A DNA stretch of 64,000 nt, taken from an uncultured SAR86 cluster bacterium. GTDB taxonomy: Bacteria > Pseudomonadota > Gammaproteobacteria > Magnimaribacterales > D2472. The notes below the pieces were generated by a model, which did no database searches, was not told where the DNA came from, and worked only from the letters and a program-made list of their open reading frames with translations. The DNA is taken from contig CAXYDN010000007.1 in NCBI GenBank assembly GCA_964276145.1, forward strand, positions 167,122 through 231,121, written 5' to 3'. Position numbers and translations under genes: made by a program. This document shows positions 3,534-20,088 of the stretch, piece by piece. Position 1 is the stretch's first letter. Each line of letters starts with the position of its first letter.

Positions 3534-3570
3534 CTAAATATTGTAACTTCCTACATTCAGTATAGATATA

Positions 3571-3598
3571 AAAAAAGGCTCTTATGAGCCCCTTTTTA
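3571..3598. terminator. Bidirectional rho-independent terminator
   Basis: AAAAAAGGCTC-ttat-GAGCCCCTTTTT sits between the PAN-domain gene stop (3614) and the patatin gene start (3533). Confidence 0.65.
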
Positions 3599-3613
3599 AT
3601 TTACATCTAAGAT

Positions 3614-3904: not shown

Positions 3905-3934
3905 TTTAATACCTATAGTTTGGGGGTTAAATTA

Positions 3935-3953
3935 ATGTTTACACTGTAAACAT
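3935..3953. promoter_or_regulatory. Perfect palindrome ATGTTTACA-C-TGTAAACAT upstream of the PAN-domain gene
   Basis: Read directly: 9-bp arms, about 31 nt upstream of the start at 3904. Function unknown. Confidence 0.25.
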
Positions 3954-4015
3954 AGAAGATGATACAGTATAATGTATGCACTGTATACATTATGTTTAAA
4001 ATTAAATATATAAAA

Positions 4016-4330
4016 TTAATTACTTATATTTATATCTAATAATTTACTTGCTTCTTTAATGCTGCCTGCATTGGTTACCTTCAAAAAACCATTTTCTAAA
4101 AGAATCTTTGTAGCCTTGCCAGACCTGTTACCACTTCTACAATAAAGATAAATTTCTTCGTCTTTAGAGGTATTTGATGATATGTCTAAAATATCTTCCC
4201 ACTGGACATGAATTGCAGATTCTAAATGACCAGTTTCCCACTCCTGTAAGGTTCTAACATCGATTACAGTTAAAGCAAAACAATTGATTGACAGGATACT
4301 AAAAAAGAAAATTTTTATATTACAAATCAT
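4016..4330 (-). CDS. Rhodanese-domain sulfurtransferase, exported
   Basis: N-terminal hydrophobic signal and active-site loop YCRSGNRS. Its start abuts the GMC gene stop (4331). Confidence 0.85.
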   Translation of the reverse strand: MICNIKIFFFSILSINCFALTVIDVRTLQEWETGHLESAIHVQWEDILDISSNTSKDEEIYLYCRSGNRSGKATKILLENGFLKVTNAGSIKEASKLLDINISN

Positions 4331-6010
4331 TTAATTCCAATCTTTTAGAATGATATCAGAAGCTTTTTCACCAATCATGATTGTAGGTGCATTGGTATTG
4401 CCTCCGACCAATGTAGGCATGATTGAAGCATCCACAACTCTTAACCCATCAACCTTATGAACTTTTAATTTATTATTAACAACTGACATTTCATCCAATC
4501 CCATCATGCAAGTCCCAACTGGATGATAGACAGTGTCTGCTTCTTCTCGAATGGCTTTCTCAATATCTTCATCATCATCCATATCGATAGGCCTATAAAC
4601 ATGTTTACTTGTATATTTTGATAAAGGTTCTTTATTCATAATCTTCATCATTTTTTTATAGCCCTCAACCATATCTCTCATGTCATCTGGATGAGATAAA
4701 AATTTAGGGTCTATTTTTGGGTCCTCAAAAGGATCAGCTGAATTTAATGTTACCTGCCCTCTTGATTTTGGCCTTAAAAGACATGTGTGACAGCTTATAC
4801 CAGTCCCCCAAAGTTGTTGTCTTCCATGGTCTACAACCATTCCAGGTGCAAAATGAAGCTGTATATCAGGCACTGAAATATCATTCCTAGATCTTATAAA
4901 ACCTCCTGCCTCAGCAACAGTTGAAGTAAATAGTCCTGTCTTAGTAAAAATGTACTTCAAAATTTCATAAGGAAACTTAAAGAATATAGTTCCCAAAGAA
5001 AAACCTATTAGATTGATTGATTTATATTTATGTACGGAAAGATAGTCGATATGGTCTTGTAAGTTTTTACCAACTCCAGGTAGGTCAACTTTATGTTCGA
5101 TGCCATGTTTTATAATCTCTTCACTAGGACCAACCCCTGATCTCAATAAAATTTGAGGCGAACCAAAGGCTCCAGAAGATAGAAGAACTTCTTTTGTTGC
5201 TTTAACAAAAAATTCTTCTCCCTCTTCGTTGATACAATGAACACCCGAAGCTTTATTGTCGTCAATAGCTATTTTAGCTACATTAGTATCAGTCAATATT
5301 GTGAGGTTTTCTCTATCCAAAATTGGGACTAAATATGCTTTTGCTGCACTACACCTTTTACCGTCTTTTTGAGTGGTCTGATAGTAACCAATTCCCTCTT
5401 GGCTTTCTCCATTAAAATCTTCGTTATAGCCAAATATTGAAGAACCTGTTTTTACAAAATCATCTACCGATTTATTTTTGTGTCTTATTTTTGCAACGTT
5501 TAATGGTCCATTTTGACCATGAAAATTATCATCAAAGATTTCGTTGTGTTCAGCTTTTTTAAAATAGGGTAAAACATCATCATACGACCAGCCCTCATTT
5601 CCAAGTTCTGCCCAGTGGTCGTAATCCCATTTGTGACCTCGCACATATAGCATTGCATTAATTGAGCTTGATCCTCCTAAAGTCTTTCCTCTTGGCTGGT
5701 ATCCTCTTCTATGCTCTTGAACTTCATTTTCAATTTCATGCACTCCTCCAGCAGAGTCAACAACAGCTGTTGAAGGAGCTGTTACTGATACTTTTTCAAA
5801 TTCCGTTTGTGGCTCAGTATTATAATTCCAGCTATATTTACTACCCTCTCCTAGAAAAGCGAAACCTAAAGGGACATGCAATCGCATATCCGTATCTTTA
5901 GAACCAGCTTCAATGAGACACACATTAAAATTTGAATTTGCACTAAGCCTATTCGCTAGAACACAACCAGCCGAGCCAGCCCCTAAAATAATAAAATCAT
6001 AGCTTTTCAT
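4331..6010 (-). CDS. GMC-family FAD oxidoreductase (choline/alcohol dehydrogenase-like)
   Basis: [22 protein letters not shown]-binding fold and C-terminal HPVGTCMMG / [15 protein letters not shown] signatures. 559 aa. Confidence 0.9.
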
Positions 6011-6099
6011 TTATCAACACTCTAATTTATAGTCTCTTAAGTTTATGATTTCAAAAACAAACTGTAAACTTATATATTAATAAACAGCTAAGACATATT

Positions 6100-6849
6100 G
6101 TGAGTATTTTTAATAGTTTTCTAATCTTATGGATCGTGGTAGCAGCAATTACCTTTGTATATCTATTTTTTGTAAGTGCTCCATACGGCAGACATATTAG
6201 GACAGGATGGGGTAGAAATATTTCAGCAAGGGCAGGATGGGTAATAATGGAATCACCCTGTGTTGTCATAATGTCGGTCTATGCTTTCATTGTTAGAGAT
6301 AACTTAGAGACCGTACATATAATTTTTTTATCGCTTTGGATGCTGCACTACATTCACAGATCATTTATTTATCCATTTGTCATTGATATGACAAATCCTA
6401 AGATGCCAATAAGCATCGCAAGCTCTGCATTCTTTTTTAATATTGTTAATGTGAACCTGCAAGCATTTGGTATCTATTATCTTACTGAATATTCTTCGGA
6501 TTGGATTAATAATCAGATATTTTATATAGGACTGATTATCTTTTTTACAGGCATGTATATCAATATAAAGTCTGACTATCTTATTATTGCTCTAAGAAAA
6601 AATATGGGTCCTGGTTATCATCTTCCAACAAAGTTTATGCATAAATATATCTCTTCACCCAATTACTTTGGTGAAATAATAGAATGGCTTGGGTGGGCTA
6701 TTTTGACCTGGAGCATCTCTGGAGCTGTTTTTGCTCTATGGACTATAGCGAATTTATTGCCAAGAGCATTTACCCACCATCAATGGTACAAAGAAAAATT
6801 TCCTGATTATCCCAAAAATAGAAAAGCTATTATTCCTGGAATTATTTAA
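6100..6849 (+). CDS. 3-oxo-5-alpha-steroid 4-dehydrogenase (steroid 5-alpha-reductase) family membrane protein
   Basis: Polytopic membrane protein with the C-terminal SSPNYFGEIIEWLGWAILT motif. GTG start. Confidence 0.8.
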   Translation: MSIFNSFLILWIVVAAITFVYLFFVSAPYGRHIRTGWGRNISARAGWVIMESPCVVIMSVYAFIVRDNLETVHIIFLSLWMLHYIHRSFIYPFVIDMTNPKMPISIASSAFFFNIVNVNLQAFGIYYLTEYSSDWINNQIFYIGLIIFFTGMYINIKSDYLIIALRKNMGPGYHLPTKFMHKYISSPNYFGEIIEWLGWAILTWSISGAVFALWTIANLLPRAFTHHQWYKEKFPDYPKNRKAIIPGII

Positions 6850-7849
6850 GCATTCCTAACTCTTTCATTTGATTAGCAATTTCAACAATTGACTCCTCTG
6901 CTGGCCTAGGATTCCATCCCAAAATATCTTTTGCTTTAGAAGTATGCTTAACGCTTCTTAGCCTACCAAGATAAGGAAGAGTAAGCTTTAATTCCTTACT
7001 AAAATTAGCCATAATTTTTGCAAGCCAAACTGGAATTCCAACAGTTGGTGCTTTTTCAAAGCCATTTTCTCTTAAGAGCTTGGCGACATCCTTATACCAT
7101 AAATCTTTTTCGGCTAATGCAAATCTTTCCCCGCTTGAAGCTGGAGTTTGCATTGCAAGAATATGAGCTGCTGCTACATCTTTAACATCTACATATCCAA
7201 ACATGAGAGGAACTGCTACAGGCATTTTACCGCTAGCTACCATTTGCACTGCTTTATTAGATTCGCCAATATCACCAGACAATGATGAGCCCACAACAAG
7301 CGCAGGATTGATAACAGCTAATTCAAAAGGGTCATCATGAGTCTCTACAAAATCCCAGGCAGCTCTCTCTGCAAGAGTCTTACTTTTTGAGTAATGACTT
7401 ATTGCTGGGTTTTTTGGATCTGACCAGTCTGTTTCATCGTAGTAACTTTTCTTCTCCATGGTATCAAAGATTGCAGCCACAGATGAGGTCAAGACAACTT
7501 TTTTAACTTTATGTTTTTTTGCAAACTTAAATGCTCTGTTTACTCCTGCAACTGCTGGCTTAACAAAAAAATCTTCATCATGATTTTCAAGAGCAATCGG
7601 TGAGGCAACATGAAGCAGATAATCACAGCCTGACATACCATCATCCCAGCCATCATCTTCTGTTAAATTAAAAGTATACAAATTAAGGTTCTCAGTAGAT
7701 GTATTGTGCTTTTGTAATGCTTCTATTATTTCATTTTTTCTATCAGGAGATCTAACAGAGCCGTTTACTGCATACCCTTGATTTAAAAGTTGGTGAATGC
7801 AATGAAGTCCTATAAAACCTGTTGCTCCTGTTACTAAAACTTTTTCCAT
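6842..7849 (-). CDS. NAD(P)-dependent epimerase/dehydratase-fold reductase (dihydroflavonol/aldehyde reductase-like)
   Basis: VLVTGATGFIGLH Rossmann motif and YSKSK (YxxxK). Confidence 0.85.
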   Translation of the reverse strand: MEKVLVTGATGFIGLHCIHQLLNQGYAVNGSVRSPDRKNEIIEALQKHNTSTENLNLYTFNLTEDDGWDDGMSGCDYLLHVASPIALENHDEDFFVKPAVAGVNRAFKFAKKHKVKKVVLTSSVAAIFDTMEKKSYYDETDWSDPKNPAISHYSKSKTLAERAAWDFVETHDDPFELAVINPALVVGSSLSGDIGESNKAVQMVASGKMPVAVPLMFGYVDVKDVAAAHILAMQTPASSGERFALAEKDLWYKDVAKLLRENGFEKAPTVGIPVWLAKIMANFSKELKLTLPYLGRLRSVKHTSKAKDILGWNPRPAEESIVEIANQMKELGMLK

Positions 7850-12164: not shown

Positions 12165-12977
12165 TTAATTTGATAAAAAATTTGGCATAAATTCTTTATC
12201 GTCTGCATTATAAAGTGTGAATCCGTTATAAAGATCAATCTGTTCACCGCATGAAGCAAACTCACTAAATATTGGAAACATTTTTTCTCTTACGCTGGTC
12301 TCAAATGAAGCAGTAGCTTTATCCATTGATTTCTTGCTATTTGTGAAATTCATCCATAAAAAACTAGATGGATCTTCATGAAAAAAATAATTGCCTAGAT
12401 GATATGTGGTATCAGCATAATCTGATTGGGCCACTGCATCTCTAAAGCCAGGTAAAAAACCTATAGCATCTTCTTTTGAGTATCCGCTATTTAATTCACA
12501 TACATAAACCTCTGTATAAAAATAACCTGACTCAGGTAGTTCTCCATATGTGGCAGCTGGAATTGGAAAAACGCTATCAAAAGCATTTCTTGATTCACCA
12601 TCGCACTGTAAAACAGAAGCATATTTCTCTTGCCATGCAAGTGCATCTTCATTATCGACCCATTCTTCCCATGCAGCATCAGCAGCTTCTTCAGATGACC
12701 ATTGTATTTCCCACCATCCAGTATCACCAACTGAATTAGTATCAACAGCTGGAGCATAACCCCATACACCTTGAAGATCTTCAGCAGTTAAGAGTTTTTG
12801 CCATTCAGCGATCATGGCTGTCATATTCTCTGAGTTAAAGTCTGGGCCAGCTTCGCATGGCATGAATTCAGTAAAATAAGAAGTATCGAGTGGGTCAGCA
12901 ACTTGTTCAGCAGCTTCCTCCATTGAGCAACTCACTATAAAAATGACTGGTAATATCAATGTAATTAATTTTTTCAT
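12165..12977 (-). CDS. Acidic, Trp-rich lipoprotein of unknown function
   Basis: Lipobox LPVIFIVSC. I recognise no family. Confidence 0.6.
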   Translation of the reverse strand: MKKLITLILPVIFIVSCSMEEAAEQVADPLDTSYFTEFMPCEAGPDFNSENMTAMIAEWQKLLTAEDLQGVWGYAPAVDTNSVGDTGWWEIQWSSEEAADAAWEEWVDNEDALAWQEKYASVLQCDGESRNAFDSVFPIPAATYGELPESGYFYTEVYVCELNSGYSKEDAIGFLPGFRDAVAQSDYADTTYHLGNYFFHEDPSSFLWMNFTNSKKSMDKATASFETSVREKMFPIFSEFASCGEQIDLYNGFTLYNADDKEFMPNFLSN

Positions 12978-13083
12978 GTTTTTCCCTATTTTTTAAAACT
13001 TAAAATTATTCTCTCATCTAGAATTATTAAGTCAAATAGAAATAAGATATAGAAAATATGTATAAAAAATTACTTATATGCAT

Positions 13084-13116
13084 AAAAAAAGAGAGCTAAA
13101 AGCTCTCTTTTTTTTA
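13084..13116. terminator. Rho-independent terminator closing the riboswitch/small-ORF unit
   Basis: AAAAAAAGAGAGCT-aaa-AGCTCTCTTTTTTTT. On the minus strand the hairpin is followed by a U-run 5 nt after the stop at 13121. Confidence 0.8.
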
Positions 13117-13120
13117 AACC

Positions 13121-13285
13121 TTACAAATAGTAAGGGAAAAATACATCCTTTTTAGGCTGTGACTTATTCTCAGTTTTATTTTGAGTACGTAAGTTATAGT
13201 TAAGCTTATTAATTGCAATTTGCAACATAACTGGGCTTCCTAGCTTAGGTGTATTTAGTTTTTTTTGAATGTTTAAAGCATTCAT
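13121..13285 (-). CDS. 54-aa basic protein of unknown function, riboswitch-controlled
   Basis: MNALNIQKKLNTPKLGSPVMLQIAINKLNYNLRTQNKTENKSQPKKDVFFPYYL. AAGGAG (13291..13296) lies 5 nt upstream of ATG 13285. The track's longer start at 13324 runs into the aptamer. Confidence 0.6.
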   Translation of the reverse strand: MNALNIQKKLNTPKLGSPVMLQIAINKLNYNLRTQNKTENKSQPKKDVFFPYYL

Positions 13286-13306
13286 AACATCTCCTTTTAA
13301 AAAGAT

Positions 13307-13354
13307 GCGTTCCTTCGGTATCATTACCTACTTCCGTCTCTTTAGAGATGAACG
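13307..13354 (-). promoter_or_regulatory. Glutamine-riboswitch-like aptamer (glnA RNA motif), ORF-proximal copy
   Basis: Minus-strand RNA: AUCGUUCA-UCUC[UAAA]GAGA-CGGAAGUAG-GUA[AUGA]UAC-CGAAGGAACGCAU. P1 is CGUUC/GAACG. The junction strings CGGAAGUAG and CGAAGGAACGC match my recollection of the glnA RNA consensus. Confidence 0.7.
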
Positions 13355-13362
13355 ATGATAAT

Positions 13363-13409
13363 GCGTTCCTTCGTCTTGCGACTACTTCCGTCCCCCTAGG
13401 GGATGAACG
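13363..13409 (-). promoter_or_regulatory. Glutamine-riboswitch-like aptamer (glnA RNA motif), distal copy
   Basis: Minus-strand RNA: AUCGUUCA-UCCCC[UAG]GGGGA-CGGAAGUAG-UC[GCAA]GA-CGAAGGAACGCAU. The junction sequences are identical to the other copy. Both hairpins differ in sequence but keep pairing (covariation). Confidence 0.7.
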
Positions 13410-13548
13410 ATAATTAATAGTAGCAAAGAAATAATTTATATACAAATTCTATATATAAACTTATATATTTTTTTTTTATACTTTAAAGAGTTTGGATAGC
13501 TTATTTCATAGATATATTAAATATTCAATATTTAATTATGGAGTAATT

Positions 13549-13965
13549 ATGAAAAAATATTTCTTGCTATGCGCTGTTATTGGATTCTCAACATCAGCAT
13601 TTTCTTTAACCCTTGAAGATACTTTTAATGCAACGTTTAAGATTGACTCTGTTACGGTGGGTAAAAGCGAAAGCACAATAAATTTATCCAGCCCTTCAAC
13701 CGGTCAATACGGAAAAGTTTATGTTTCTTATACTTTCACATCAAATCCTGATATTCCTGGCTCAGGAACATGGACTGGCCATGGCAGAGGAATTAGCCCT
13801 GAGGGAGTTATAGCCAGAGGAGATCTAATGGGTGTCTATACTTTAGAAGGTGGAAAAATTCATGTGAAGTCACTTGATAGCGTCACTGATGGTATAAACT
13901 TTTTAGAAGGATCAATTGACCTTGTTTCTGGTGTGATGGAAGCATCAGTATCTAAAGTTAAATAA
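13549..13965 (+). CDS. Secreted protein of unknown function
   Basis: GGAG lies 6 nt before ATG 13549. Signal peptide MKKYFLLCAVIGFSTSAFS. The track start at 13492 is unlikely. Confidence 0.6.
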   Translation: MKKYFLLCAVIGFSTSAFSLTLEDTFNATFKIDSVTVGKSESTINLSSPSTGQYGKVYVSYTFTSNPDIPGSGTWTGHGRGISPEGVIARGDLMGVYTLEGGKIHVKSLDSVTDGINFLEGSIDLVSGVMEASVSKVK

Positions 13966-13980
13966 TTTTTTTTATTTTAT

Positions 13981-14009
13981 AAAAAGCGGTCTTGAGCCGC
14001 TTTTTTTTA
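13981..14009 (+). terminator. Rho-independent terminator
   Basis: AAAAAGCGG-tcttgag-CCGCTTTTTTTT follows the stop at 13965. Confidence 0.7.
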
Positions 14010-14216
14010 TTGAGATATCATTAGATCAGGATTAATCTGGCATTCATTAATAACCGATTCTTTCTTTCTTTTTGGATAGCCTTTTTTTGCATCTGATTTA
14101 TTTACATAATCTACGCATTCATCAATGTTAGTAAAAGGTGGTTTAGGAATATTTTCATTCGATGATCTTCCACACCCAACTAATCCAACAACTATTATTA
14201 ATACTAAATATTTCAT
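14007..14216 (-). CDS. Small lipoprotein
   Basis: MKYLVLIIVVGLVGC lipobox. 69 aa. Confidence 0.55.
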   Translation of the reverse strand: MKYLVLIIVVGLVGCGRSSNENIPKPPFTNIDECVDYVNKSDAKKGYPKRKKESVINECQINPDLMISQ

Positions 14217-14228
14217 AATGTCTTCACC

Positions 14229-15104
14229 TTAAAGCATATCAATTTTTTGATTAACTATATCTTTTAGTAACGGACTTTTTTCAGATTTAGCGAATGCCTC
14301 ATCAATGCCAGCAAATCTTGCTTGATTTACTTCGCGATAATTGGGATGAGTGAAAATGTATAATTCTCCATCGTTAATTGCTTCTACTACTCTTTTACCA
14401 ACAATAGAGGCATCTATTCCGTCCTTTACCATCTGCTTTGTTTGTTTTGAAAAGCTACTTTCATTTTCAGTATTATATATATCTGATTTATATTTATCTG
14501 GTCGATTTCTTTCTGAGTCATATATACGAGTTTTTACAAAAGCAGGACATAATACAGATACGCCAATACGCTTATCTTGTAGCTCTTGAGCCCAGCTTTC
14601 AGACAATGCAACAACCGCAGCTTTGCTGGCAGTATATGCCCCACTATATGGAACACCTCCCATACCTGCCATTGAGGATACATTTAAAATCCAACCTCCT
14701 TCACCATGCTCCTTAATTAGAGGTGTTATTGTCTTTGCGCCATAAACAACACCCATTAAATTAACTTCCAATGCCCAATGCCAGCCTTCTTTTTCTTGGC
14801 TTTCTATAGGTCCTGAATCACCACCAACGCCAGCGTTATTAACAACCATATGAACCTTACCAAATTTGTCTATTGCTTTTTTAGCAACTGATTTCCATTG
14901 CATTTCATCAGCTACATCTAGCAAAGCAGACAGTACAGGAATTCCTAATGACTCTAATTCTGCAGTAGATTTAAGTAGATTTTCTTTATCGATATCAGCA
15001 AGAACTATATTCATCTTTTGCTCACCTAATGCTTTGGCAATAGAGAGGCCAATACCTTCAGCTCCACCACTAATTACAGCAGTTCGTCCTTCAAATTTAA
15101 ACAT
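14229..15104 (-). CDS. Short-chain dehydrogenase/reductase (SDR)
   Basis: TAVISGGAEGIGLSIA cofactor motif and YTASKAAV catalytic YxxxK. Confidence 0.9.
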   Translation of the reverse strand: MFKFEGRTAVISGGAEGIGLSIAKALGEQKMNIVLADIDKENLLKSTAELESLGIPVLSALLDVADEMQWKSVAKKAIDKFGKVHMVVNNAGVGGDSGPIESQEKEGWHWALEVNLMGVVYGAKTITPLIKEHGEGGWILNVSSMAGMGGVPYSGAYTASKAAVVALSESWAQELQDKRIGVSVLCPAFVKTRIYDSERNRPDKYKSDIYNTENESSFSKQTKQMVKDGIDASIVGKRVVEAINDGELYIFTHPNYREVNQARFAGIDEAFAKSEKSPLLKDIVNQKIDML

Positions 15105-15114
15105 TTAAAGTTTT

Positions 15115-15390
15115 CTATTTTTTAATGGCTTCTTCATATATCGAAACAGTATCTAGCATGATATATCCAGAAACAAATTCTCCAAGAAAAGTAACTGTTG
15201 TTACAAACAAGCCAATAATTAAATAAAAATTAAACATACTGGAGCTATGCCTTAGTTCGTTGGAGCCAATCAATATATAAACTATCCCCATAAGATAAAG
15301 AGTTAGTCCTGAAAAATAATTATCTATATATATTAATACCAATGAAATTAGTAATAAAACAAACGTTAGAATATGTGCGTAATTTTTCAT
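15115..15390 (-). CDS. 91-aa polytopic small membrane protein
   Basis: MKNYAHILTFVLLLISLVLIYI.. has three hydrophobic spans. ATG 15390 overlaps the TAA of the upstream 28-aa ORF (TAATG). Confidence 0.5.
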   Translation of the reverse strand: MKNYAHILTFVLLLISLVLIYIDNYFSGLTLYLMGIVYILIGSNELRHSSSMFNFYLIIGLFVTTVTFLGEFVSGYIMLDTVSIYEEAIKK

Positions 15391-15476
15391 TAGAACCACC
15401 CCTGTAATCTACCAATCATTCCAAAAATTATTCCTGGTAATACCAATATGATTGTTGTTTTAGTATCTATGTTCAT
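15390..15476 (-). CDS. 28-aa hydrophobic peptide (not in ORF track)
   Basis: MNIDTKTTIILVLPGIIFGMIGRLQGWF. It is preceded by the conserved GGAGAGAAC leader of repeat family A and is translationally coupled to the next ORF. Confidence 0.4.
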   Translation of the reverse strand: MNIDTKTTIILVLPGIIFGMIGRLQGWF

Positions 15477-15554
15477 GTTCTCTCCAGCTTAAAAATAAAC
15501 ATCTCAATAATGCCATAATAATTTGTCAAAATAAAACACATTGTTGTAAATATT
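15477..15554. repeat. Repeat family A copy 1 (conserved promoter/leader module)
   Basis: gttctctccagcttaaaaataaacatctcaataatgccataataatttgtcaaaataaaacacattgtt aligns with copies at 15779 and 16513. The minus strand reads TTGACA-17 nt-TGAGAT-leader-GGAGAG-ATG. Confidence 0.6.
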
Positions 15555-15576
15555 AGACTGGGGAGAACCCCTCTTT

Positions 15577-15599
15577 GTAACTCTACCTAGTTGCTTTTA
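15577..15599. repeat. Repeat family X copy 1
   Basis: GTAACTCTACCTAGTTGCTTTTA compared with GCAACTCTACCCAGTTACTTTTA at 16847. Both lie immediately 3' of a minus-strand mini-ORF. Confidence 0.5.
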
Positions 15600-15601
15600 T
15601 A

Positions 15602-15775
15602 TTATTCTTCTAATTTTCCTTGCCCTTGCCAATAAAATAATAAAGTTAATGCGGACAACATCAATATATCGAAGAAACTTCCTTCACCGTAAAAAAAATC
15701 ATAGGTAGCATAAATAGTGATAAACAGTGAAATTATCCAAAAATGTCTTCCATATTTCGCTAATAGTTTTTTCAT
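15602..15775 (-). CDS. 57-aa small membrane protein (not in ORF track)
   Basis: MKKLLAKYGRHFWIISLFITIYATYDFFYGEGSFFDILMLSALTLLFYWQGQGKLEE. Hand-translated. Confidence 0.45.
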   Translation of the reverse strand: MKKLLAKYGRHFWIISLFITIYATYDFFYGEGSFFDILMLSALTLLFYWQGQGKLEE

Positions 15776-15778
15776 CCT

Positions 15779-15832
15779 TAGATAATGCCATAACCATTTG
15801 TCAAAATAAAATACATTGTTTAGGATGTGATT
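15779..15832. repeat. Repeat family A copy 2
   Basis: tagataatgccataaccatttgtcaaaataaaatacattgtttaggatgtgatt runs directly into ATG 15833. Confidence 0.6.
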
Positions 15833-16111
15833 ATGAAAAAAATATTACTATTACTGATGTCATTACCATTAATAACTTTTGCTGATCCTACTTCAGATAA
15901 AAGATTGGTATCTGAGCTTTCAATTGATGAATTAAAACAAATTGTTAGAAGCATTGTTGAGGAGAGTATTGAACAATGTGTTGTTACTGGAACTATGGAA
16001 GGAAGAGCAAAGGTTAATCTTAAAGTTGAGGGTGAAGTTGTTGCTAAAATGGAATGTGAGTTCAAGCAGCCGAATAAAATAGAAGAAGTAAAAAAAGATA
16101 TATCTAGTTAA
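15833..16111 (+). CDS. 92-aa secreted protein
   Basis: Signal peptide MKKILLLLMSLPLITFA. Its stop lies inside CTAGTTAA, which opens repeat R1. Confidence 0.55.
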   Translation: MKKILLLLMSLPLITFADPTSDKRLVSELSIDELKQIVRSIVEESIEQCVVTGTMEGRAKVNLKVEGEVVAKMECEFKQPNKIEEVKKDISS

Positions 16112-16172
16112 CCTCTCAAAATATTCAACCAATAGAGATATACCTACCCCACCCGACTGTTACTCCTACCTG
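16104..16172 (+). repeat. Repeat family R copy 1 (C-rich ~70-80 nt element)
   Basis: ctagttaacctctcaaaatattcaaccaatagagatatacctaccccacccgactgttactcctacctg aligns with the copies at 17178 and 19733. Confidence 0.7.
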
Positions 16173-16206
16173 TATATAGAAGTAATATAGCTAGGAGTTT
16201 TTCATA

Positions 16207-16512
16207 TTAAATATCTGTATGTTCAGGTCCGCATATAGTTGCTTTAAGGCTGGAAGCTCCCCCATCCAATAGAGGCTCTAATAAATCTAATAAACCAGTT
16301 TCAATTCTCCATGCAAGGTATTTTTGTTGATGCTCTAACGTCTCCCAATCCTCAATTAGATGGATTGTATTTGTAGATTCCTCAATAAATGTTTTTACAC
16401 TAATACAACCATCAAAATTTCTTGTATCTGGTAAAGCTGATTTTAATGTCTCTTTAAGGTTATTAATTGTTTCAGGTTTTGCAGGGAATGAAACGACTAC
16501 TAAATTTTTCAT
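16207..16512 (-). CDS. Antibiotic-biosynthesis-monooxygenase (ABM) fold protein
   Basis: About 100 aa. MKNLVVVSFPAKPE...HLIEDWETLEHQQKYLAWR shows a ferredoxin-like ABM pattern. Confidence 0.6.
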   Translation of the reverse strand: MKNLVVVSFPAKPETINNLKETLKSALPDTRNFDGCISVKTFIEESTNTIHLIEDWETLEHQQKYLAWRIETGLLDLLEPLLDGGASSLKATICGPEHTDI

Positions 16513-16593
16513 ATTTTCTCCAATTTAAAATAAAGCATCTCAATAATGCCACAATCAATTGTCAAAATAAAACACATTGTTTAGGATGTGGTT
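16513..16593. repeat. Repeat family A copy 3
   Basis: attttctccaatttaaaataaagcatctcaataatgccacaatcaattgtcaaaataaaacacattgtttaggatgtggtt lies between the ABM start (16512) and ATG 16594. Confidence 0.6.
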
Positions 16594-16842
16594 ATGAGCA
16601 GTGAGTACGAAGAGTTTATGAACTCTAACAAAAATGAAGACTCTTCTTCTGCTGAAGAAATAGATGAAGTGGAAATAGATACAATTGATGTAGAGGTGGT
16701 TGGAGTCTCTATTCCATTTATAGATATCTTTGTGTTGGTTTTTAAATACGTGATAGCTTTCTTTTTGGTATCAGTATGTATAGCTATTATCGGATTCTTT
16801 ATAACAGCATTATTAGGTATTAGTGCTTTAAGCTTTATCTAA
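16594..16842 (+). CDS. 82-aa protein with an acidic N-terminus and two TM spans
   Basis: MSSEYEEFMNSNKNEDSSSAEEIDEVEID...FVLVFKYVIAFFLVSVCIAIIGFFITALLGI. Confidence 0.5.
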   Translation: MSSEYEEFMNSNKNEDSSSAEEIDEVEIDTIDVEVVGVSIPFIDIFVLVFKYVIAFFLVSVCIAIIGFFITALLGISALSFI

Positions 16843-16846
16843 CTCC

Positions 16847-16869
16847 GCAACTCTACCCAGTTACTTTTA
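16847..16869. repeat. Repeat family X copy 2
   Basis: GCAACTCTACCCAGTTACTTTTA. Confidence 0.5.
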
Positions 16870-16876
16870 ATAGAAC

Positions 16877-16954
16877 CTACTTTAATAGGAAGGTTAATAT
16901 AACTATTACAGTACAACCTAAGATTACCCAATTAACCCAATTATTCATACTCAT
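16877..16954 (-). CDS. 25-aa hydrophobic peptide (not in ORF track)
   Basis: MSMNNWVNWVILGCTVIVILTFLLK. GGAGAG lies 6 nt upstream, within the family A leader. Confidence 0.35.
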   Translation of the reverse strand: MSMNNWVNWVILGCTVIVILTFLLK

Positions 16955-16985
16955 AATCTTCTCTCCATTTTAAAAATAAGTTTGA
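16955..16985. repeat. Repeat family A, leader-only partial copy 4
   Basis: aatcttctctccattttaaaaataag matches the ttctctcca..ttaaaaataa part of copies 1 and 3, then diverges. Confidence 0.45.
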
Positions 16986-17055
16986 TTTATTTTGGCATAG
17001 TCTACAAAGAAAAAGAAATCGCAACCTTCGTTGGTCATTTGCTAAGATAGAGCCA

Positions 17056-17181
17056 ATGGAAGAAAAGACTAAATCAGTAATAGGAATAGTAATTATTATT
17101 GTTGGTCTAATTGCATACAACTATTATGAATACAATAAATGGTGTGATGGTTGGTTTTATATATGGAAACCATGGTGCTAG
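17056..17181 (+). CDS. 41-aa TM peptide with a Trp/Cys-rich tail (not in ORF track)
   Basis: MEEKTKSVIGIVIIIVGLIAYNYYEYNKWCDGWFYIWKPWC. Its TAG stop lies inside the CTAGTTAA opening of repeat R2. Confidence 0.4.
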   Translation: MEEKTKSVIGIVIIIVGLIAYNYYEYNKWCDGWFYIWKPWC

Positions 17182-17257
17182 TTAATATCCCAAAACCTTT
17201 CAAAATATTTGACCACTAGATATATACCCACCCCACCCGGCTGGTACTCCTGCCCTG
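17178..17257 (+). repeat. Repeat family R copy 2
   Basis: ctagttaatatcccaaaacctttcaaaatatttgaccactagatatatacccaccccacccggctggtactcctgccctg. Confidence 0.7.
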
Positions 17258-17405
17258 CCCAAGCTAAAAAGAGACTTTAGGCATCCTTTTTATATGCGAA
17301 ATATAAATCAGTATATGATAACTTTTTTTGATTTATAGGTACTTAATACATTCTATTGATAACCCTAACATCCTCTCAAAGGTGCATTATTATAGGCTTT
17401 TAAAA

Positions 17406-17451
17406 TGGTGGGCCCGGGAGGACTCGAACCTCCGACCAATGGATTATGAGT
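17406..17451 (-). pseudogene. 3' fragment of a tRNA-Met(CAU)-type gene (anticodon loop to CCA)
   Basis: The minus strand reads ACUCAUAAUCCAUUGGUC-GGAGG-UUCGAGU-CCUCC-CGGGCCC-A-CCA. The T-arm, 3' acceptor strand and CUCAUAA loop are present. No matching 5' acceptor strand (GGGCCCG) or D-arm lies upstream. Confidence 0.65.
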
Positions 17452-17510
17452 GCATAAGTCGACAATTTAACCCCTATAAATAAGTGTTTCAGACAATTAG
17501 TATTCACATT

Positions 17511-19622
17511 TTAATTAATTTTTTGTTTTGGGTTTGAGTCATAACTCTCAACTACAATGCTTGATAGAGACTTCGCATTTGGTAAAAGCCCTTGATCTTT
17601 TCCAACAGCTATATAATGTTCTAAGCCATTTTCATATTCTCCAGACTCTACTGCTGTTCTTGCAGATAAATTATTTAATAAATAAAAGAATTCACTATAT
17701 CCATCCTCTCCTACCAAAGAAGGATCTATGCCATTAGGTCCGGTGCTTAATGGAGAATCTAAAGATGCAATAAATACATCCCAATCACCATTTGCATAAC
17801 AACCATCATTGCATCCTTTTCCAGTCATATAAGTCCATTTTAAATTTTTATCATTGTCTAAACTAAAGATTGCACCCAATTGTCCTGTTTTGTATTCATT
17901 ATTTTCAAAAATTTGATAGATTTCCATGGGTCCAATAATTTGAATAAAATGTCCAGTACCATCGTTAATTGCTACCTTTTTTTCACAACCAAAATTTCTT
18001 GGTAAATTTAAACCACTTCCTGATGGTGGGCCACCACAACCATCGGTAGTTGTTATATCTAGATATCCATCTCCATTTACATCAGAAAAATTCCAATGAT
18101 GAAGACTGCCAGTCCTAATATTCCAGTTAAATAGCCTTTGAGCTGTTTGATCTCTATAAACACCATCATCATTTATTATTATCTGAAGTACATTTGATTT
18201 TTCATACCAGTATGACTGATTGCTTATTAGAATATCTTTGTCACCGTCATAATCGATATCTAAAAATTGAGAATGAGTGTCATGAGATTTTCCATTGCCT
18301 CCAATCCAATTTTGATCTTCTTGATAATATTCCAAATTTATAAAATTAGCTTCAACATATGGTATTGGTAATTCTATGACTTCAAGAATATTAAGATTAT
18401 TTAAATCATATTTAATAACTACATTCTTTTCTGGCTCAATTATCCAGCTTGGATTGGTATGGTTTGGATTGCTGTTAAAGTCTGTATAAGTAACGTAAAG
18501 AATATTATTTTCAACATATGCATGCGCACTCATGGCTCCTCCACACCCCTCATTTGGTAAGAATCCATTTGTGGCAGGATCTGGGTTAGAGACATCATTT
18601 GGTAATGGAACAGTAATAAGATTGAAGTCGTTAAAACCATTATTTTGCAAAATCCCAATTTCTCCACAGTTTTTTGTGGATACAGATGCATTTCGATCAT
18701 TTACAAACCAGCCTGCTCCAGTTGTAATAATGTCATCATCACCATCAAGATCATAATCAAATATGCCTTGCCCATGTGATGCTAGAATTATATCCATATC
18801 AAAAAATTCTTTAGAAGAAACATCAAACACAAAGCTAGTTGCATAAGGTGCTAAGCCTGCAGAAATCTTACCTTCGTCATGGCCTGGGAAAACTATTTGG
18901 AAACTGCCATCAGAGTTTTTGAGCGGCAAAGGATGATTGCAACCTTCAATTTCTTTGTAATAAAAATTAGTAAAAACTCCATCTATTAGTTCAATAATTT
19001 TAATTGCTCCTTCATTGGGTTTTTGCGGGACCCAGTTACAATTTAAATTAAAGGTTGAATCACCGATATTTATCCAAGTATCATAGCCAACATTACCTTT
19101 AAAATTTTCATCGTCTATAAAAGTATTTGTTACATCTGTTGTAAATCTTGATTGTGGTATTGTAAAAGTTTTAAACCAAGTCTCTTCTTGATTAATTCCT
19201 ACTGGATTTTCATAAACAGATTTTAAAGATTCCCTGTAAGTATTTATCTCATCCCAGTGATCTGCATAAAGATATGGTGATATTGAAGTAACTGTAATAT
19301 TTTTATTTACAGAGGATGAGCTTGATGAACAAATTAAAATAAATGAGCTTTCCTTTGCCTCTCTAATTACTATCTCTTCAGACCCATTGTTTGCTTTTGT
19401 GCCGCTCCAGTCGCCAGAAGCTGAGCAAGAATCTGCATTTGATGATGACCATGTGAGAATAATCTTGTTATGAATATAAATCTCACTTAGATTAGATGAG
19501 AAACTAAGTGATACATTTGGAACAATGGGATTAGGGTCTGCTGATCCGCCTCCACCACCGCCTCCACATGATGCTAAAATTATTAACAAAGATATAAATT
19601 TAAAATGGTCTAGATTTCTCAT
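17511..19622 (-). CDS. FG-GAP/VCBS-repeat (integrin-alpha-like) lipoprotein
   Basis: MRNLDHFKFISLLIILASCGGGGGGGS gives a lipobox plus poly-Gly. Ca-binding-type repeats are DYDLDGDDDIITTG, DIDYDGDKDILISN and DVNGDGYLDITTTDG. ATG 19622 is preferred over the track start at 19661. Confidence 0.8.
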   Translation of the reverse strand: MRNLDHFKFISLLIILASCGGGGGGGSADPNPIVPNVSLSFSSNLSEIYIHNKIILTWSSSNADSCSASGDWSGTKANNGSEEIVIREAKESSFILICSSSSSSVNKNITVTSISPYLYADHWDEINTYRESLKSVYENPVGINQEETWFKTFTIPQSRFTTDVTNTFIDDENFKGNVGYDTWINIGDSTFNLNCNWVPQKPNEGAIKIIELIDGVFTNFYYKEIEGCNHPLPLKNSDGSFQIVFPGHDEGKISAGLAPYATSFVFDVSSKEFFDMDIILASHGQGIFDYDLDGDDDIITTGAGWFVNDRNASVSTKNCGEIGILQNNGFNDFNLITVPLPNDVSNPDPATNGFLPNEGCGGAMSAHAYVENNILYVTYTDFNSNPNHTNPSWIIEPEKNVVIKYDLNNLNILEVIELPIPYVEANFINLEYYQEDQNWIGGNGKSHDTHSQFLDIDYDGDKDILISNQSYWYEKSNVLQIIINDDGVYRDQTAQRLFNWNIRTGSLHHWNFSDVNGDGYLDITTTDGCGGPPSGSGLNLPRNFGCEKKVAINDGTGHFIQIIGPMEIYQIFENNEYKTGQLGAIFSLDNDKNLKWTYMTGKGCNDGCYANGDWDVFIASLDSPLSTGPNGIDPSLVGEDGYSEFFYLLNNLSARTAVESGEYENGLEHYIAVGKDQGLLPNAKSLSSIVVESYDSNPKQKIN

Positions 19623-19732
19623 TTTTATAATTCTATTGATATATGTTAAAAAAATAAACATTTTTTAGATTTATCTATTTAGTGATTGCTCTTGTTGCTT
19701 GGTTATGTTCCTAATTGAAAACAGAAGATTAG

Positions 19733-19809
19733 CTAGTTAACACTCCAAAACTTCTCAGAATTTATAACCACTAGATATATGCCGACCCCACCCGGCTGGT
19801 ACTCCTGCC
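19733..19809 (+). repeat. Repeat family R copy 3
   Basis: ctagttaacactccaaaacttctcagaatttataaccactagatatatgccgaccccacccggctggtactcctgcc. Confidence 0.7.
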
Positions 19810-19837
19810 TAACCCCCAACAAGGACAATGCGGATTT

Positions 19838-19950
19838 TGTGGCTACATATTGCGGACTATGGCTACAAAGTGGCTACATTTATGGCTACATTAAGAAACG
19901 AAGTTAATGGATTTCATGGCTACTTTCGTGGCTACATGGTGGCTACATTA
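19838..19950 (+). repeat. Array of seven direct (T)GGCTAC(A) repeats (iteron/arm-site-like)
   Basis: GGCTAC starts at 19841, 19861, 19872, 19884, 19918, 19930 and 19941, all in the same orientation. Spacings are 20, 11, 12, 34, 12 and 11 nt. The array ends about 50 nt from the 3' end of tRNA-Glu. Confidence 0.7.
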
Positions 19951-19998
19951 TTTTTTTTGATGCCCTGAGAAGCCCTATTTAAAGGGCTTCACAAGAAA

Positions 19999-20074
19999 TT
20001 GGCATCCCGTAGGGGAGTCGAACCCCTGTTGCCGAGATGAAAACCCGGTGTCCTAGGCCTCTAGACGAACGGGA
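19999..20074 (-). tRNA. tRNA-Glu (anticodon UUC)
   Basis: GTCCCGTTCGTCTAGAGGCCTAGGACACCGGGTTTTCATCTCGGCAACAGGGGTTCGACTCCCCTACGGGATGCCA folds as a cloverleaf with anticodon loop UUUUCAU and an encoded CCA. It closely resembles the E. coli tRNA-Glu layout. Confidence 0.92.
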
Positions 20075-20088
20075 CTAGATGCGAAACG

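What the first reader, a model, noticed from the sequence alone, without database searches (positions are those of the whole stretch)
15105..19998. Repeat-structured flexible island of mini-ORFs between an SDR gene and tRNA-Glu
This ~4.9 kb stretch departs from the otherwise housekeeping, tightly packed content.
- It holds at least nine ORFs of 25-101 aa, mostly hydrophobic or secreted, arranged as divergent pairs. It also holds one ABM-fold protein and one 703-aa FG-GAP lipoprotein.
- Three separate repeat families recur at equivalent positions: A (promoter/leader), X (3' of minus-strand mini-ORFs) and R (3' of plus-strand ORFs). The region therefore looks built from reiterated cassettes.
- It ends at a tRNA gene, contains a tRNA fragment and a phased short-repeat array, and encodes no integrase or transposase.

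Inference: this is a hypervariable, recombination-built locus (island remnant or cassette array), possibly encoding small membrane toxins, immunity proteins or surface-modulating proteins.
Basis: partly seen in the sequence, partly recalled or inferred. Interest (0 to 1): 0.6.

Follow-up and report, generated by a model that had tools for sequence, protein, structure and literature searches.

The report
Integrase-less gene-cassette island beside tRNA-Glu
This stretch of a SAR86 marine bacterium is a variable gene island beside a tRNA gene, built from worn-down mobile elements that left their small cargo genes, docking arms and promoters but lost their own insertion enzymes.

Summary
Repeat families A, R and X, the tRNA fragment, the phased 8-mer array and eight small conserved ORFs are real, and no integrase lies in the interval.

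- **Extent.** The genome belongs to the SAR86 clade. The variable interval is wider than flagged, about 13055-19731.
- **Variability.** In relatives, the gap between tRNA-Glu and the conserved anchor gene ranges from about 115 nt to 10.5 kb.
- **Mechanism.** In five metagenome contigs the module hairpin, iterons and R follows only the last 17-23 nt of tRNA-Glu. In three of these a tyrosine integrase gene lies next to it, and its promoter carries the same iterons. The window's tRNA(CAT) fragment is the arm of a second element type whose intact copy carries a P4-like integrase.
- **Reading.** This is an additive tRNA island built by serial integration and decay, as in the tycheposon model. It is now integrase-free.
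- **A and X.** A is a portable two-way promoter. X is half of a terminator hairpin.
- **R.** R is a sharply bounded 78-nt DNA module without RNA structure. It reassorts freely from both flanks, and its function is unresolved.
- **Coding.** The mini-ORFs are under purifying selection.
- **Verdict.** A new variant of a known kind, of moderate interest. The scan has noted similar integrase-free tRNA cassette arrays in other genomes.

The parts
12165..12977 (-). Conserved 270-aa exported protein; the distal anchor of the island. It lies outside the finding.
   Evidence: tblastn finds it at 50-68% identity in 9 of 15 relatives' loci. DNA homology runs to about 13054.
13055..19731 (.). The full variable interval (additive island) between the anchor flank and the tRNA-proximal R copy.
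   Evidence: Gap sizes of 0.1-10.5 kb with unrelated content in relatives.
13304..13411 (-). Two tandem glutamine riboswitch aptamers before a small ORF. This is island cargo.
   Evidence: Rfam RF01739, 64.3 and 64.1 bits against a gathering score of 35. The module is 78-91% identical at other loci in relatives.
14229..15104 (-). SDR oxidoreductase. It lies inside the island here but elsewhere in relatives.
   Evidence: Pfam adh_short, E 1.9e-46. Homologues at 70-91% identity sit at other loci, for example G127 at 1.287 Mb against its tRNA-Glu at 0.779 Mb.
15115..15476 (-). Overlapping pair: a 28-aa ORF (15390-15476) and a 91-aa three-helix membrane ORF (15115-15390).
   Evidence: The 91-aa ORF has 35 database relatives of mostly 91-97 aa, 70-100% identical. 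The 28-aa ORF is 82% identical in G085, with dN/dS 0.14 from one pair.
15472..15561 (.). A1: two-way promoter and leader module with no plus-strand gene behind it.
   Evidence: Repeat family D1/D3. The core is conserved in relatives.
15557..15603 (+). Hairpin whose 3' arm is X1 (15579-15599), followed by TTTTA. Together with A1 it forms an empty unit.
   Evidence: The 5' arm complements X. The same A-hairpin-X unit occurs in L116.
15602..15775 (-). 57-aa two-helix membrane ORF.
   Evidence: Homologues in G027, G020, G060 and G046, with dN/dS 0.14-0.34; one homologue carries an in-frame stop.
15782..15836 (.). A2 promoter module.
   Evidence: TTGTCA-17-TAGGAT at 15798-15826; repeat family D1.
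15833..16111 (+). 92-aa secreted protein. Its stop codon lies inside R1.
   Evidence: dN/dS 0.07-0.14 in 9 pairs. Its C-terminal part is 74-87% identical in many family genomes.
16093..16170 (+). R1, the most worn R copy, with a truncated arm remnant to its right.
   Evidence: The right flank resembles L131.
16207..16512 (-). 101-aa ABM-fold protein.
   Evidence: Pfam ABM, E 5.8e-6, 26.8 bits against a cut-off of 23.1. Widespread in the family.
16508..16597 (.). A3 promoter module.
   Evidence: TTGTCA-17-TAGGAT at 16559-16587.
16594..16842 (+). 82-aa protein with an acidic N-terminus and a membrane anchor.
   Evidence: One diverged homologue in L095 (72% aa identity), with dN/dS 0.15.
16849..16869 (+). 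X2: the hairpin 3' arm without its partner.
   Evidence: L113 is 97% identical over 16724-16869.
16877..16954 (-). 25-aa single-helix ORF.
   Evidence: Four homologues, dN/dS 0.27-0.35.
16956..17055 (.). A-like spacer that keeps the minus-strand leader and RBS.
   Evidence: Repeat family D4.
17056..17181 (+). 41-aa membrane ORF that ends at the first bases of R2.
   Evidence: dN/dS 0.22-0.41 in 4 pairs. The same ORF|R junction occurs in L098, L108 and L110.
17177..17254 (+). R2, the copy closest to the family consensus.
   Evidence: Up to 96% identical to R in other genomes.
17255..17401 (.). Arm remnant of a tRNA(CAT)-targeting element.
   Evidence: 91% identical to L067 over 17189-17454.
17402..17454 (-). 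3' part of a tRNA(CAT), from the anticodon loop to CCA. This is the att core remnant.
   Evidence: 92% identical to the C3 tRNA. In L067 an integrase gene follows it.
17511..19622 (-). 703-aa lipoprotein with FG-GAP-like repeats. A rare cargo gene.
   Evidence: Pfam FG-GAP_3 at 22.2 bits, below the cut-off. It is 33% identical (E 5e-84) to L110:991-2931, which passes the cut-off. 2 of 138 other family genomes hold a relative at E<=1e-40.
19732..19809 (+). R3, the tRNA-proximal copy at the inner end of the arm.
19840..19947 (+). Seven TGGCTAC(A/T) iterons, read as integrase arm-type binding sites.
   Evidence: Clustering. Iteron types in the same position are genome-specific. Iterons also occur in integrase promoters.
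19969..19990 (.). Hairpin just downstream of tRNA-Glu, part of the arm.
   Evidence: Read from the sequence. Relatives have a hairpin plus T-run at the same place.
20000..20075 (-). tRNA-Glu(TTC), the integration target. Its last 17-23 nt form the att core.
   Evidence: ARAGORN and Rfam at 51.7 bits. Partial copies of its 3' end in metagenome contigs.

Best explanation
The interval is the tRNA-Glu-proximal additive genomic island of a SAR86-clade genome. Small mobile elements with tyrosine integrases insert at the last ~20 nt of tRNA-Glu.

**What each element brings**
- a replacement tRNA end (the core);
- a hairpin;
- a row of helically phased integrase-binding iterons;
- the 78-nt module R;
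- cargo driven by the two-way promoter module A.

**How the island grows**
- Later arrivals push earlier ones inward.
- Deletions and recombination at the shared modules (R, A, X) then strip integrases and outer att sites. Small cargo genes are left separated by R, A and X.

**What the window shows**
- One complete arm next to tRNA-Glu: hairpin, seven TGGCTACA iterons and R3.
- Two inner R copies with truncated arms.
- The arm and tRNA(CAT) 3' half of a second, P4-like-integrase element type.
- Four A-centred divergent gene units.
- No recombinase.

**Shown and inferred**
- Shown: hypervariability, partial-tRNA cores beside integrases in related DNA, iterons in integrase promoters, purifying selection on the cargo, and structural variants with ends at module edges.
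- Inferred: that the window's own cassettes arrived this way, that iterons bind integrase, that A fires in both directions, and that reshuffling at R and A occurs mostly by homologous recombination.
For: **1. Conserved frame, variable fill**
- SecDF-SuhB-TrmJ-tRNA-Glu-iterons-R is conserved, and the far anchor ORF is conserved. The fill ranges from 0.1 to 10.5 kb with unrelated genes.

**2. Position of R**
- R was found in 32 of 139 family genomes and in 8 of 10 genera. It almost always lies 145-190 nt beyond the 3' end of tRNA-Glu.
- The spacer holds genome-specific iterons: TGGCTACA, GGACACA/GGAAACA, TAGGTACA or TGACTACA.

**3. What follows R in metagenome DNA**
- 80 distinct R copies were found in 77 metagenome loci. 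Of the 49 with enough right flank:
  - 20 are followed by a full or contig-cut tRNA-Glu;
  - 6 by only its last 14-23 nt;
  - 3 by tRNA(CAT) parts;
  - 2 by tRNA-Thr;
  - 18 by no tRNA piece.

**4. Integrases beside the cores**
- Directly beyond the partial tRNA-Glu core lie 441-456-aa integrases with DUF6538, SAM-like and catalytic domains. They occur in L137, L109 and L088 and in G001:C25.
- Their promoter region carries two TAGGTACA-type iterons.

**5. The tRNA(CAT) elements**
- L067 is 91% identical to window 17189-17454. It continues into a 456-aa integrase with an arm-DNA-binding domain.
- On contig C3 a 0.95-kb insert with R and a DUF4345 gene is flanked by the tRNA(CAT) and a copy of its 5' 46 nt.
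- G112 has a 7.2-kb element with the same ends and integrase genes.

**6. Truncated arms**
- Distal R copies keep truncated arms of other iteron types (L101 and L127).

**7. Coding signal**
- dN/dS is 0.07-0.41 for seven small ORFs. The eighth has 35 database relatives.

**8. Population variants**
- DNA-run contigs show joints 15545>17160, 17049>17176, 15811>16176 and 15109>15588, and an A3|R junction.
- One contig has R2 followed by a TAGGTACA arm.
- Summed contig depth differs up to about 100-fold between neighbouring modules.

**9. Published model**
- The scheme matches the tycheposon model in the passages read of 10.1101/2020.12.28.424599.
Against: - The window holds no partial tRNA-Glu copy at up to 4 mismatches and no integrase remnant. 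Its own history is therefore inferred from related DNA.
- Even the 'empty' G127 site has arm and R abutting the anchor gene's promoter without a second core.
- Integrases of these types are very rare in the references. The Glu type is in 1 of 139 genomes and the G112 type in 1 of 139. None turned up in viral contigs or phage records.
- R variants show no association with arm type. R is therefore not simply inherited with its arm, which the plain accretion model does not predict.
- 18 of 49 R copies have cargo rather than an arm on the right.
- The fragments held show no replication module.
- All runs laid were contigs broken at these modules, so the order of units across R in this assembled contig could be partly an assembly path.
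- One search scored only two candidate places per genome.
Confidence: 0.72

Rival explanations
1. R and A are the working sites of a cassette-exchange platform. Units bounded by R (0.4-2.9 kb) are swapped as wholes at R's edges by a recombinase acting in trans, or by very frequent conversion. A supplies the promoter and RBS to whatever lands beside it. On this view the tRNA-targeting elements are only the vehicles.
For: - R has razor-sharp edges. There are 59 distinct non-A left flanks among 80 copies, and A abuts R in 18 of them.
- The same ORF|R junction occurs with different right flanks, and the same R|arm with different left flanks.
- None of about 21 variable columns inside R is tied to arm type, except one borderline column. 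Columns 83-85, just outside R, are strongly tied (MI 0.17-0.72).
- Linkage inside R is weak beyond about 10 nt.
- R-to-R spacings of 403-2939 nt occur in direct orientation.
- A is identical up to the start codon in front of unrelated genes.
- R sits beside arms served by three different integrase types.
Against: - No candidate recombinase is known. The own genome has only two Xer-like tyrosine recombinases and no resolvase.
- R and A are unlike the genome's dif site, with at least 13 of 28 mismatches.
- R has no attC-like fold.
- Homologous recombination at the only shared sequences would also give sharp module edges and flank reassortment, and RecA is present.
- No circular R-R junction was seen.
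Confidence: 0.2
2. This is a replacement island maintained only by homologous recombination between the conserved flanks and internal repeats. Site-specific integration plays no part in this lineage, and the integrase contigs are unrelated bystanders.
For: - 137 of 139 reference genomes lack a dedicated integrase of either type.
- G+C and GC3 equal the flanks.
- Cargo genes occur at other loci in relatives.
- RecA is present.
Against: - Partial tRNA-Glu 3' ends are followed by the same hairpin-iteron-R arm and preceded by integrase genes.
- The tRNA(CAT) 5' and 3' pieces end exactly at the anticodon loop.
- Iteron type changes while tRNA and R stay the same.
Confidence: 0.06
3. The repeats are ordinary regulatory DNA. 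A would be an operator or promoter of a regulon, and R a small RNA or terminator. On this view the region is not mobile at all.
For: - A has promoter-like hexamers.
- R lies downstream of a tRNA on the same strand.
- RNA-library contigs cover parts of the region.
Against: - A and X occur nowhere else in the genome, and R occurs only at a second tRNA site.
- R has no conserved fold on either strand: -4.8 and -0.9 kcal/mol, with 0 covarying pairs in 22 sequences.
- No Rfam family matches R.
- Gene content differs between relatives.
Confidence: 0.02

Closest known systems
Tycheposon-built, tRNA-proximal genomic islands of Prochlorococcus (Hackl et al., preprint 10.1101/2020.12.28.424599; passages read)
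   Same: - A streamlined marine bacterium with islands at fixed tRNA genes.
- Elements integrate at the tRNA end and push older ones inward.
- Partial tRNAs and degraded elements are scattered in the island.
- Most islands hold no intact element.
- Cargo is niche or defence genes.
   Different: - The host is SAR86, a name that does not occur in that preprint's text.
- No replication hallmark genes were seen in the element fragments held.
- Integrase phylogeny was not tested.
- The repeated unit in this island is not a partial tRNA. It is a 78-nt non-tRNA module (R) shared by arms aimed at tRNA-Glu, tRNA-Thr and tRNA(CAT).
- Cargo carries a conserved portable promoter (A).
tDNA-integrated genomic islands and their tandem arrays as defined by Islander (PMC4383910; passages read)
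   Same: - Tyrosine integrase, with attP holding a tDNA fragment that restores the gene.
- Crossover at the T-stem/acceptor junction (tRNA-Glu, last 17-23 nt) or at the anticodon loop (tRNA(CAT)).
- Both 3' and the rarer 5' displaced fragments occur.
   Different: - The window's island would fail Islander's filters. It has no integrase on board and no tRNA-Glu fragment, and its units are often under 2 kb.
- It is a decayed array rather than a putatively active island.
Integron cassette arrays (recalled; no paper read here)
   Same: - Small one- to three-gene units in one orientation, separated by a repeated site.
- ORFs run up to that site.
- Flanks reassort at the site.
   Different: - There is no IntI-type integrase.
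- R lacks the folded attC architecture.
- The units bring their own promoter.
- The array is anchored to a tRNA arm, not to attI.
Xer-dependent modules (IMEX elements and pdif modules; recalled)
   Same: Mobile units without their own recombinase in genomes whose only tyrosine recombinases are XerC/XerD-like.
   Different: R and A do not resemble the genome's own dif site or the recalled consensus, with at least 13 of 28 mismatches.

Membership tests
tDNA-integrated genomic island (Islander definition, PMC4383910) | An intact tDNA and a displaced fragment of the same tDNA, in the same orientation, bracket the island. | tested here: not met
   - No tRNA-Glu 3'-end copy at up to 4 mismatches in window 12901-20000.
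- Met in related DNA: 6 partial tRNA-Glu ends among 49 informative R copies.
- Met at the genome's tRNA(CAT) site, which has a 46-nt 5' fragment.
tDNA-integrated genomic island (Islander definition, PMC4383910) | A tyrosine integrase is encoded on the island. | tested here: not met
   - None in the window.
- The own genome has only two ~300-aa Xer-like proteins.
- Present beside the cores in L137, L109, L088, L067, G001 and G112.
tDNA-integrated genomic island (Islander definition, PMC4383910) | The crossover lies at a canonical sublocation: the anticodon loop, the T loop or the T-stem/acceptor junction. | tested here: met
   - tRNA-Glu pieces cover positions 54/59/60/63 to 76.
- tRNA(CAT) pieces end in the anticodon loop.
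Tycheposons (10.1101/2020.12.28.424599) | [quoted passage not shown] | tested here: met
Tycheposons (10.1101/2020.12.28.424599) | Hallmark recombination plus DNA-replication genes (primase, helicase) and membership of the tycheposon integrase clades. | tested here: inconclusive
   - Pfam and PHROGs on the fragments held found integrases and HNH/endonuclease VII genes but no primase or helicase.
- No element was seen whole.
- No integrase tree was built.
Integron | An IntI integrase with attI and a promoter beside the array. | tested here: not met
   Only Xer-like tyrosine recombinases in the own genome and in 127 of 139 family genomes searched with one integrase query.
Integron | attC sites with a conserved imperfect-palindrome fold. 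| tested here: not met
   RNAalifold of 22 R copies on both strands gave 5 pairs each, -4.8 and -0.9 kcal/mol, and no covariation.
Xer/dif-dependent modules | A 28-bp dif-like site (two Xer-binding arms and a 6-bp spacer) at the module borders. | tested here: not met
   The best alignments of R2, A3 and the R3 arm to the dif consensus have 13-15 mismatches of 28. The genome's own dif, at C7:41361, has 5.
MITE or REP-type dispersed repeat | Many dispersed copies with terminal inverted repeats. | tested here: not met
   There are four R copies, all at two tRNA sites. A and X are confined to the island. No inverted termini are visible in the alignment.

The most novel reading that the evidence does not exclude
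R, together with A, is a dedicated recombination and expression platform of SAR86 mobile DNA.
- R is a 78-nt, structure-free site at which gene units are exchanged between elements aimed at different tRNAs and served by unrelated integrases.
- The exchange would be made by a recombinase not encoded nearby, or by a conversion process with tracts of only ~10-20 nt.
- A acts as a ready-made two-way promoter and RBS that expresses whatever ORF is joined to it.
- This would be an integron-like gene-capture system with neither integron integrase nor attC.
Probability: 0.2. Interest if true: 0.75.

Novelty: new variant of a known kind. Interest (0 to 1): 0.5.

Why it matters
SAR86 is among the most abundant uncultured bacteria of the surface ocean, and how its tiny genomes gain and lose genes is poorly known.

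- **A concrete mechanism.** The locus shows tRNA-targeting integrase elements whose worn remains form fine-grained cassette stacks. This parallels what was proposed for Prochlorococcus.
- **Where intact elements can be found.** Reference MAGs and SAGs almost never retain the integrases. Intact elements have to be sought in unbinned contigs that break at R.
- **Assembly and binning.** The conserved modules R and A are practical markers for locating SAR86 flexible DNA in metagenomes. They also explain why assemblies shatter there.
- **If R is a true exchange site.** It would be a new kind of cassette recombination site.
- **The cargo.** Conserved small membrane and secreted proteins, a rare FG-GAP lipoprotein, and restriction or defence genes in relatives. 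These are candidates for strain-level niche and phage-interaction differences.

Tried and rejected
**R as a structured RNA.** Rejected. RNAalifold on both strands found no structure, and no Rfam family matches at E<=1.

**R or A as a dif-like Xer site.** Rejected.

**R as a phage or satellite attP in public viral data**
- The R pattern gave 0 hits in viral contigs.
- The R3 arm gave no match in the phage records.
- The L137 integrase gave no relative in viral contigs.
- These are absences in those collections only.

**A as a genome-wide operator.** Rejected. There are no further copies at up to 4 mismatches apart from one weak hit.

**IHF site in R.** A match to the IHF consensus as I recall it falls on columns that vary between copies. 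I did not pursue it and make no claim.

**Foreign composition.** Not found.

**Integrase pseudogene in the window.** Not found.

**Expression**
- RNA-library contigs nearly identical to 15117-15274, 16273-16551, 16735-17198 and 19267-19436 (run X18), and to 13193-15014 (run X15), exist.
- These are contigs, and DNA carry-over cannot be excluded. I do not count them as proof of transcription.
- Parts without RNA cover say nothing.

**Depth differences between modules.** These are sums over contigs at 90% likeness or more. They are suggestive of unequal carriage only.

**The genome-contig scan.** It returned only 4 loci. It served to name the clade (one record is titled as a gammaproteobacterial single-cell genome, which I recall as belonging to SAR86), not to count.

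Full report
**What is in the window**

The window is G000:C7:167122-231121 of a 1.19-Mb, 11-contig, roughly 33% G+C genome. One close relative (G112) carries a public title that I recall as a SAR86 single-cell genome.

- Family A lies at 15472-15561, 15782-15836 and 16508-16597, with a partial copy at 16956-16979.
- Family R lies at 16093-16170, 17177-17254 and 19732-19809.
- Family X lies at 15579-15599 and 16849-16869.
- tRNA-Glu is at 20000-20075 on the minus strand.
- A tRNA fragment lies at 17402-17454. It is the 3' part of a tRNA(CAT), 92% identical to the gene on contig C3.
- Seven TGGCTAC(A/T) copies lie in 19840-19947, against 2.8 expected in the whole window.
- Pfam names only the SDR, the ABM protein, a sub-threshold FG-GAP hit and the flanking SpoU methylase. 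It finds no recombinase.
- A, X and the iteron cluster occur nowhere else in the genome. R has one more copy on contig C3.

**The interval is hypervariable and wider than flagged**

- Across 15 relatives' loci, the run SecDF-SuhB-TrmJ-tRNA-Glu-spacer-R is conserved. So is a 270-aa exported protein (12165-12977) on the other side.
- The distance from R to that anchor is about 115 nt in G127. It is 2.5 to 10.5 kb in eight others and 6.75 kb here.
- I scanned 116 of 151 ORFs of 75 aa or more from 11 of these islands with Pfam. ORFs under 75 aa and loci L044 and L045 were left out.
- That scan found no integrase. The cargo was varied: small membrane proteins, MORN, TonB_C, beta-lactamase fold, PhoD, RRM, and a helicase-PLD-WYL set.
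- The SDR gene lies inside the variable part. Its homologues (70-91% identical) sit at other loci in relatives, as do the glutamine-riboswitch module and several mini-ORFs. That search scored only two places per genome.
- G+C and GC3 match the flanks, so the cargo comes from the lineage's own gene pool.

**How the island is built**

R is found in 32 of 139 family genomes (8 of 10 genera). It is nearly always 145-190 nt beyond the 3' end of tRNA-Glu, and the iterons in between are genome-specific.

They contain 80 distinct R copies. For 49 of these the right flank was long enough to judge:
- 20 are followed by a full or contig-cut tRNA-Glu;
- 6 are followed by only its last 14-23 nt;
- 3 are followed by tRNA(CAT) parts;
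- 2 are followed by tRNA-Thr(TGT);
- 18 are followed by no tRNA piece.

Integrases lie beside the partial tRNA-Glu ends.
- Immediately beyond them in L137, L109 and L088, and on G001:C25, lies a conserved stretch and a 441-456-aa tyrosine integrase (DUF6538, SAM-like and catalytic domains).
- The promoter region of this integrase holds two iterons of the same TAGGTACA type as the arms.
- This is the classic layout: P arm, then the core (the tRNA end), then the P' arm. The hairpin, iterons and R therefore belong to the element, and older arms are left behind partial tRNAs when a new element enters.
- Distal R copies in two-copy contigs keep truncated arms of other iteron types.

**The second element type**

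- The window's R2, spacer and tRNA(CAT) 3' half are 91% identical to contig L067. There the next gene is a 456-aa integrase with an arm-DNA-binding domain. The homology stops in the anticodon loop.
- A third type uses the same tRNA but carries its 5' half. On contig C3 a 0.95-kb insert lies between the intact tRNA(CAT) and a 46-nt copy of its 5' end. The insert holds an element end, one iteron, R, an A-like spacer and a DUF4345 gene.
- That insert is 99% identical in two same-genus genomes and 97% identical in parts of two other genera.
- G112 has a 7.2-kb element with the same ends and two integrase-like genes.
- Dedicated integrases are rare in the references. One G112-type and one L137-type were found in 139 genomes, and otherwise only one or two Xer-like genes each.

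**A and X**

- The A core is conserved across genera and sits in relatives' islands.
- On the plus strand it reads TTGTCA-17-TAGGAT, with an ATG 6-7 nt later. The start is therefore either leaderless, or AGGA serves as the ribosome-binding site. This is inference.
- On the minus strand it offers TTGACA and a shared leader with GGAG before the start codons of the 28-aa ORF, the ABM gene and the 25-aa ORF (read).
- Unrelated genes follow the same A sequence right up to the ATG.
- X is the 3' arm of a hairpin followed by TTTTA.
- After A1 the whole hairpin is present with no gene, so this unit is empty. After the 82-aa ORF only the X half remains.

**The small ORFs are genes**

Pairwise dN/dS values (Nei-Gojobori) against homologues in stored loci are as follows.

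| ORF | dN/dS | Pairs |
|---|---|---|
| 92-aa secreted protein | 0.07-0.14 | 9 |
| 28-aa ORF | 0.14 | 1 |
| 82-aa ORF | 0.15 | 1 |
| 25-aa ORF | 0.27-0.35 | 4 |
| 41-aa ORF | 0.22-0.41 | 4 |
| 57-aa ORF | 0.14-0.34 | 4 (one homologue has an in-frame stop) |

- The 91-aa membrane ORF has 35 database relatives of mostly 91-97 aa.
- The lipoprotein is rare: 2 of 138 other genomes hold a relative at E<=1e-40.
- It is 33% identical to an island ORF in L110 that passes the FG-GAP_3 cut-off.
- Nothing tested here says what these proteins do. Most are predicted envelope proteins.

**Population data**

Twenty public runs from nine studies hold part of the stretch. I laid two DNA runs and two RNA runs, all kept as contigs.
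- The region is shattered into pieces of 0.3-1.5 kb.
- Joints and replacements end at module edges:
  - from the end of A1 to just before R2;
  - a deletion of the 41-aa ORF that ends at the first base of R2;
  - a deletion of the 92-aa ORF plus R1;
  - a deletion from the SDR start to X1;
  - an A3|R junction.
- One contig continues from R2 into a TAGGTACA arm. A variant without the tRNA(CAT) piece, the lipoprotein and R3 therefore exists.
- Summed depths differ up to about 100-fold between neighbouring modules. This is suggestive only.
- Passages of PMC12379486 report SAR86 structural variants that carry the glutamine riboswitch.

**What R is remains open**

- R has no conserved RNA fold. 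It does not resemble dif.
- Both of its edges are sharp. There are 59 distinct non-A left flanks, and A abuts R in 18 of 80 copies.
- I collected 129 distinct copies. Copies without 30 nt on the left and 70 nt on the right were dropped, as were duplicate loci L002-L031 and L058.
- 74 of these had a classifiable arm. In them no variable column inside R is associated with arm type beyond shuffling, apart from one borderline column. This includes a five-base block that exists in two inverted forms.
- The first columns outside R are strongly associated with arm type.
- Linkage inside R fades within about 10 nt.
- R therefore reassorts from its arm and is itself a mosaic.
- Frequent homologous exchange at the only sequence shared by all elements is the simplest reading, and RecA is present. 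A dedicated exchange site is not excluded.

**Comparison, caveats and verdict**

- The locus works like the tycheposon model and like decayed Islander-type tandem islands.
- It is not an active island by those definitions, because it has no integrase and no tRNA-Glu fragment.
- It is not an integron, a Xer module or a MITE.
- Earlier notes of this scan describe integrase-free cassette arrays at tRNA genes in other phyla. The general pattern has therefore been met before on other DNA. I did not test those notes.
- Caveats:
  - the window's own history is inferred from related contigs;
  - no element was seen whole;
  - the order across R in this assembled contig may be partly an assembly path;
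  - the counts rest on capped searches.
- Verdict: a new variant of a known kind, of moderate interest.

Noticed in passing
window 13304-13411 (minus strand), with the small ORF downstream to about 13121: Two tandem glutamine riboswitch aptamers (RF01739, 64 bits each) precede a small ORF inside the variable island. The module is 78-91% identical at other loci in at least 10 family genomes. A 2025 paper (PMC12379486, passages read) reports SAR86 deletions that carry this riboswitch.
   Followed up: partly
G000:C3:76966-77916 (L001 6966-7916): A 0.95-kb integrase-less mini-element sits inside the tRNA(CAT) next to yrbL-rpoD-dnaG. It is flanked by the tRNA and a 46-nt copy of its 5' end. It is 99% identical in G132 and G113, and 97% identical in parts of G026 and G016, which belong to other genera. 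That suggests recent spread.
   Followed up: partly
R copies, alignment columns 57-61 (window 17233-17237 in R2): A five-base block exists in two forms that are reverse complements of each other (ACCCC and GGGGT). The split is about 50 to 24 among the 74 copies with a classifiable arm, and it is independent of arm type. It may be a recurrent template-switch change or an old allele pair.
   Followed up: partly
L054 (G071:C2:81000-91000), positions 3132-7490: Three complete tandem tRNA(CAT) genes, each with the same upstream flank. DUF411, OYE-type and Rce1-like genes lie between them.
   Followed up: no
Metagenome loci L072, L121, L091 and L110; genome locus L040 (G001): Defence-type cargo lies directly beside R: an AlwI-type restriction-modification set, cytosine methylases with a MutH-like nuclease, an Mrr nuclease, and a helicase-PLD protein with a WYL regulator.
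   Followed up: no
L184 (G020:C1:312000-315200), positions 1470-1631: The homologue of the 57-aa ORF has an in-frame stop and lies about 450 nt from tRNA-Gly(GCC). Weak R-like hits also occur beside tRNA-Phe and tRNA-Gly in other genomes.
   Followed up: no
Metagenome loci: Very many contigs end within about 30-300 nt of R, mostly on the iteron side. R marks a place where short-read assemblies of SAR86 populations break.
   Followed up: partly
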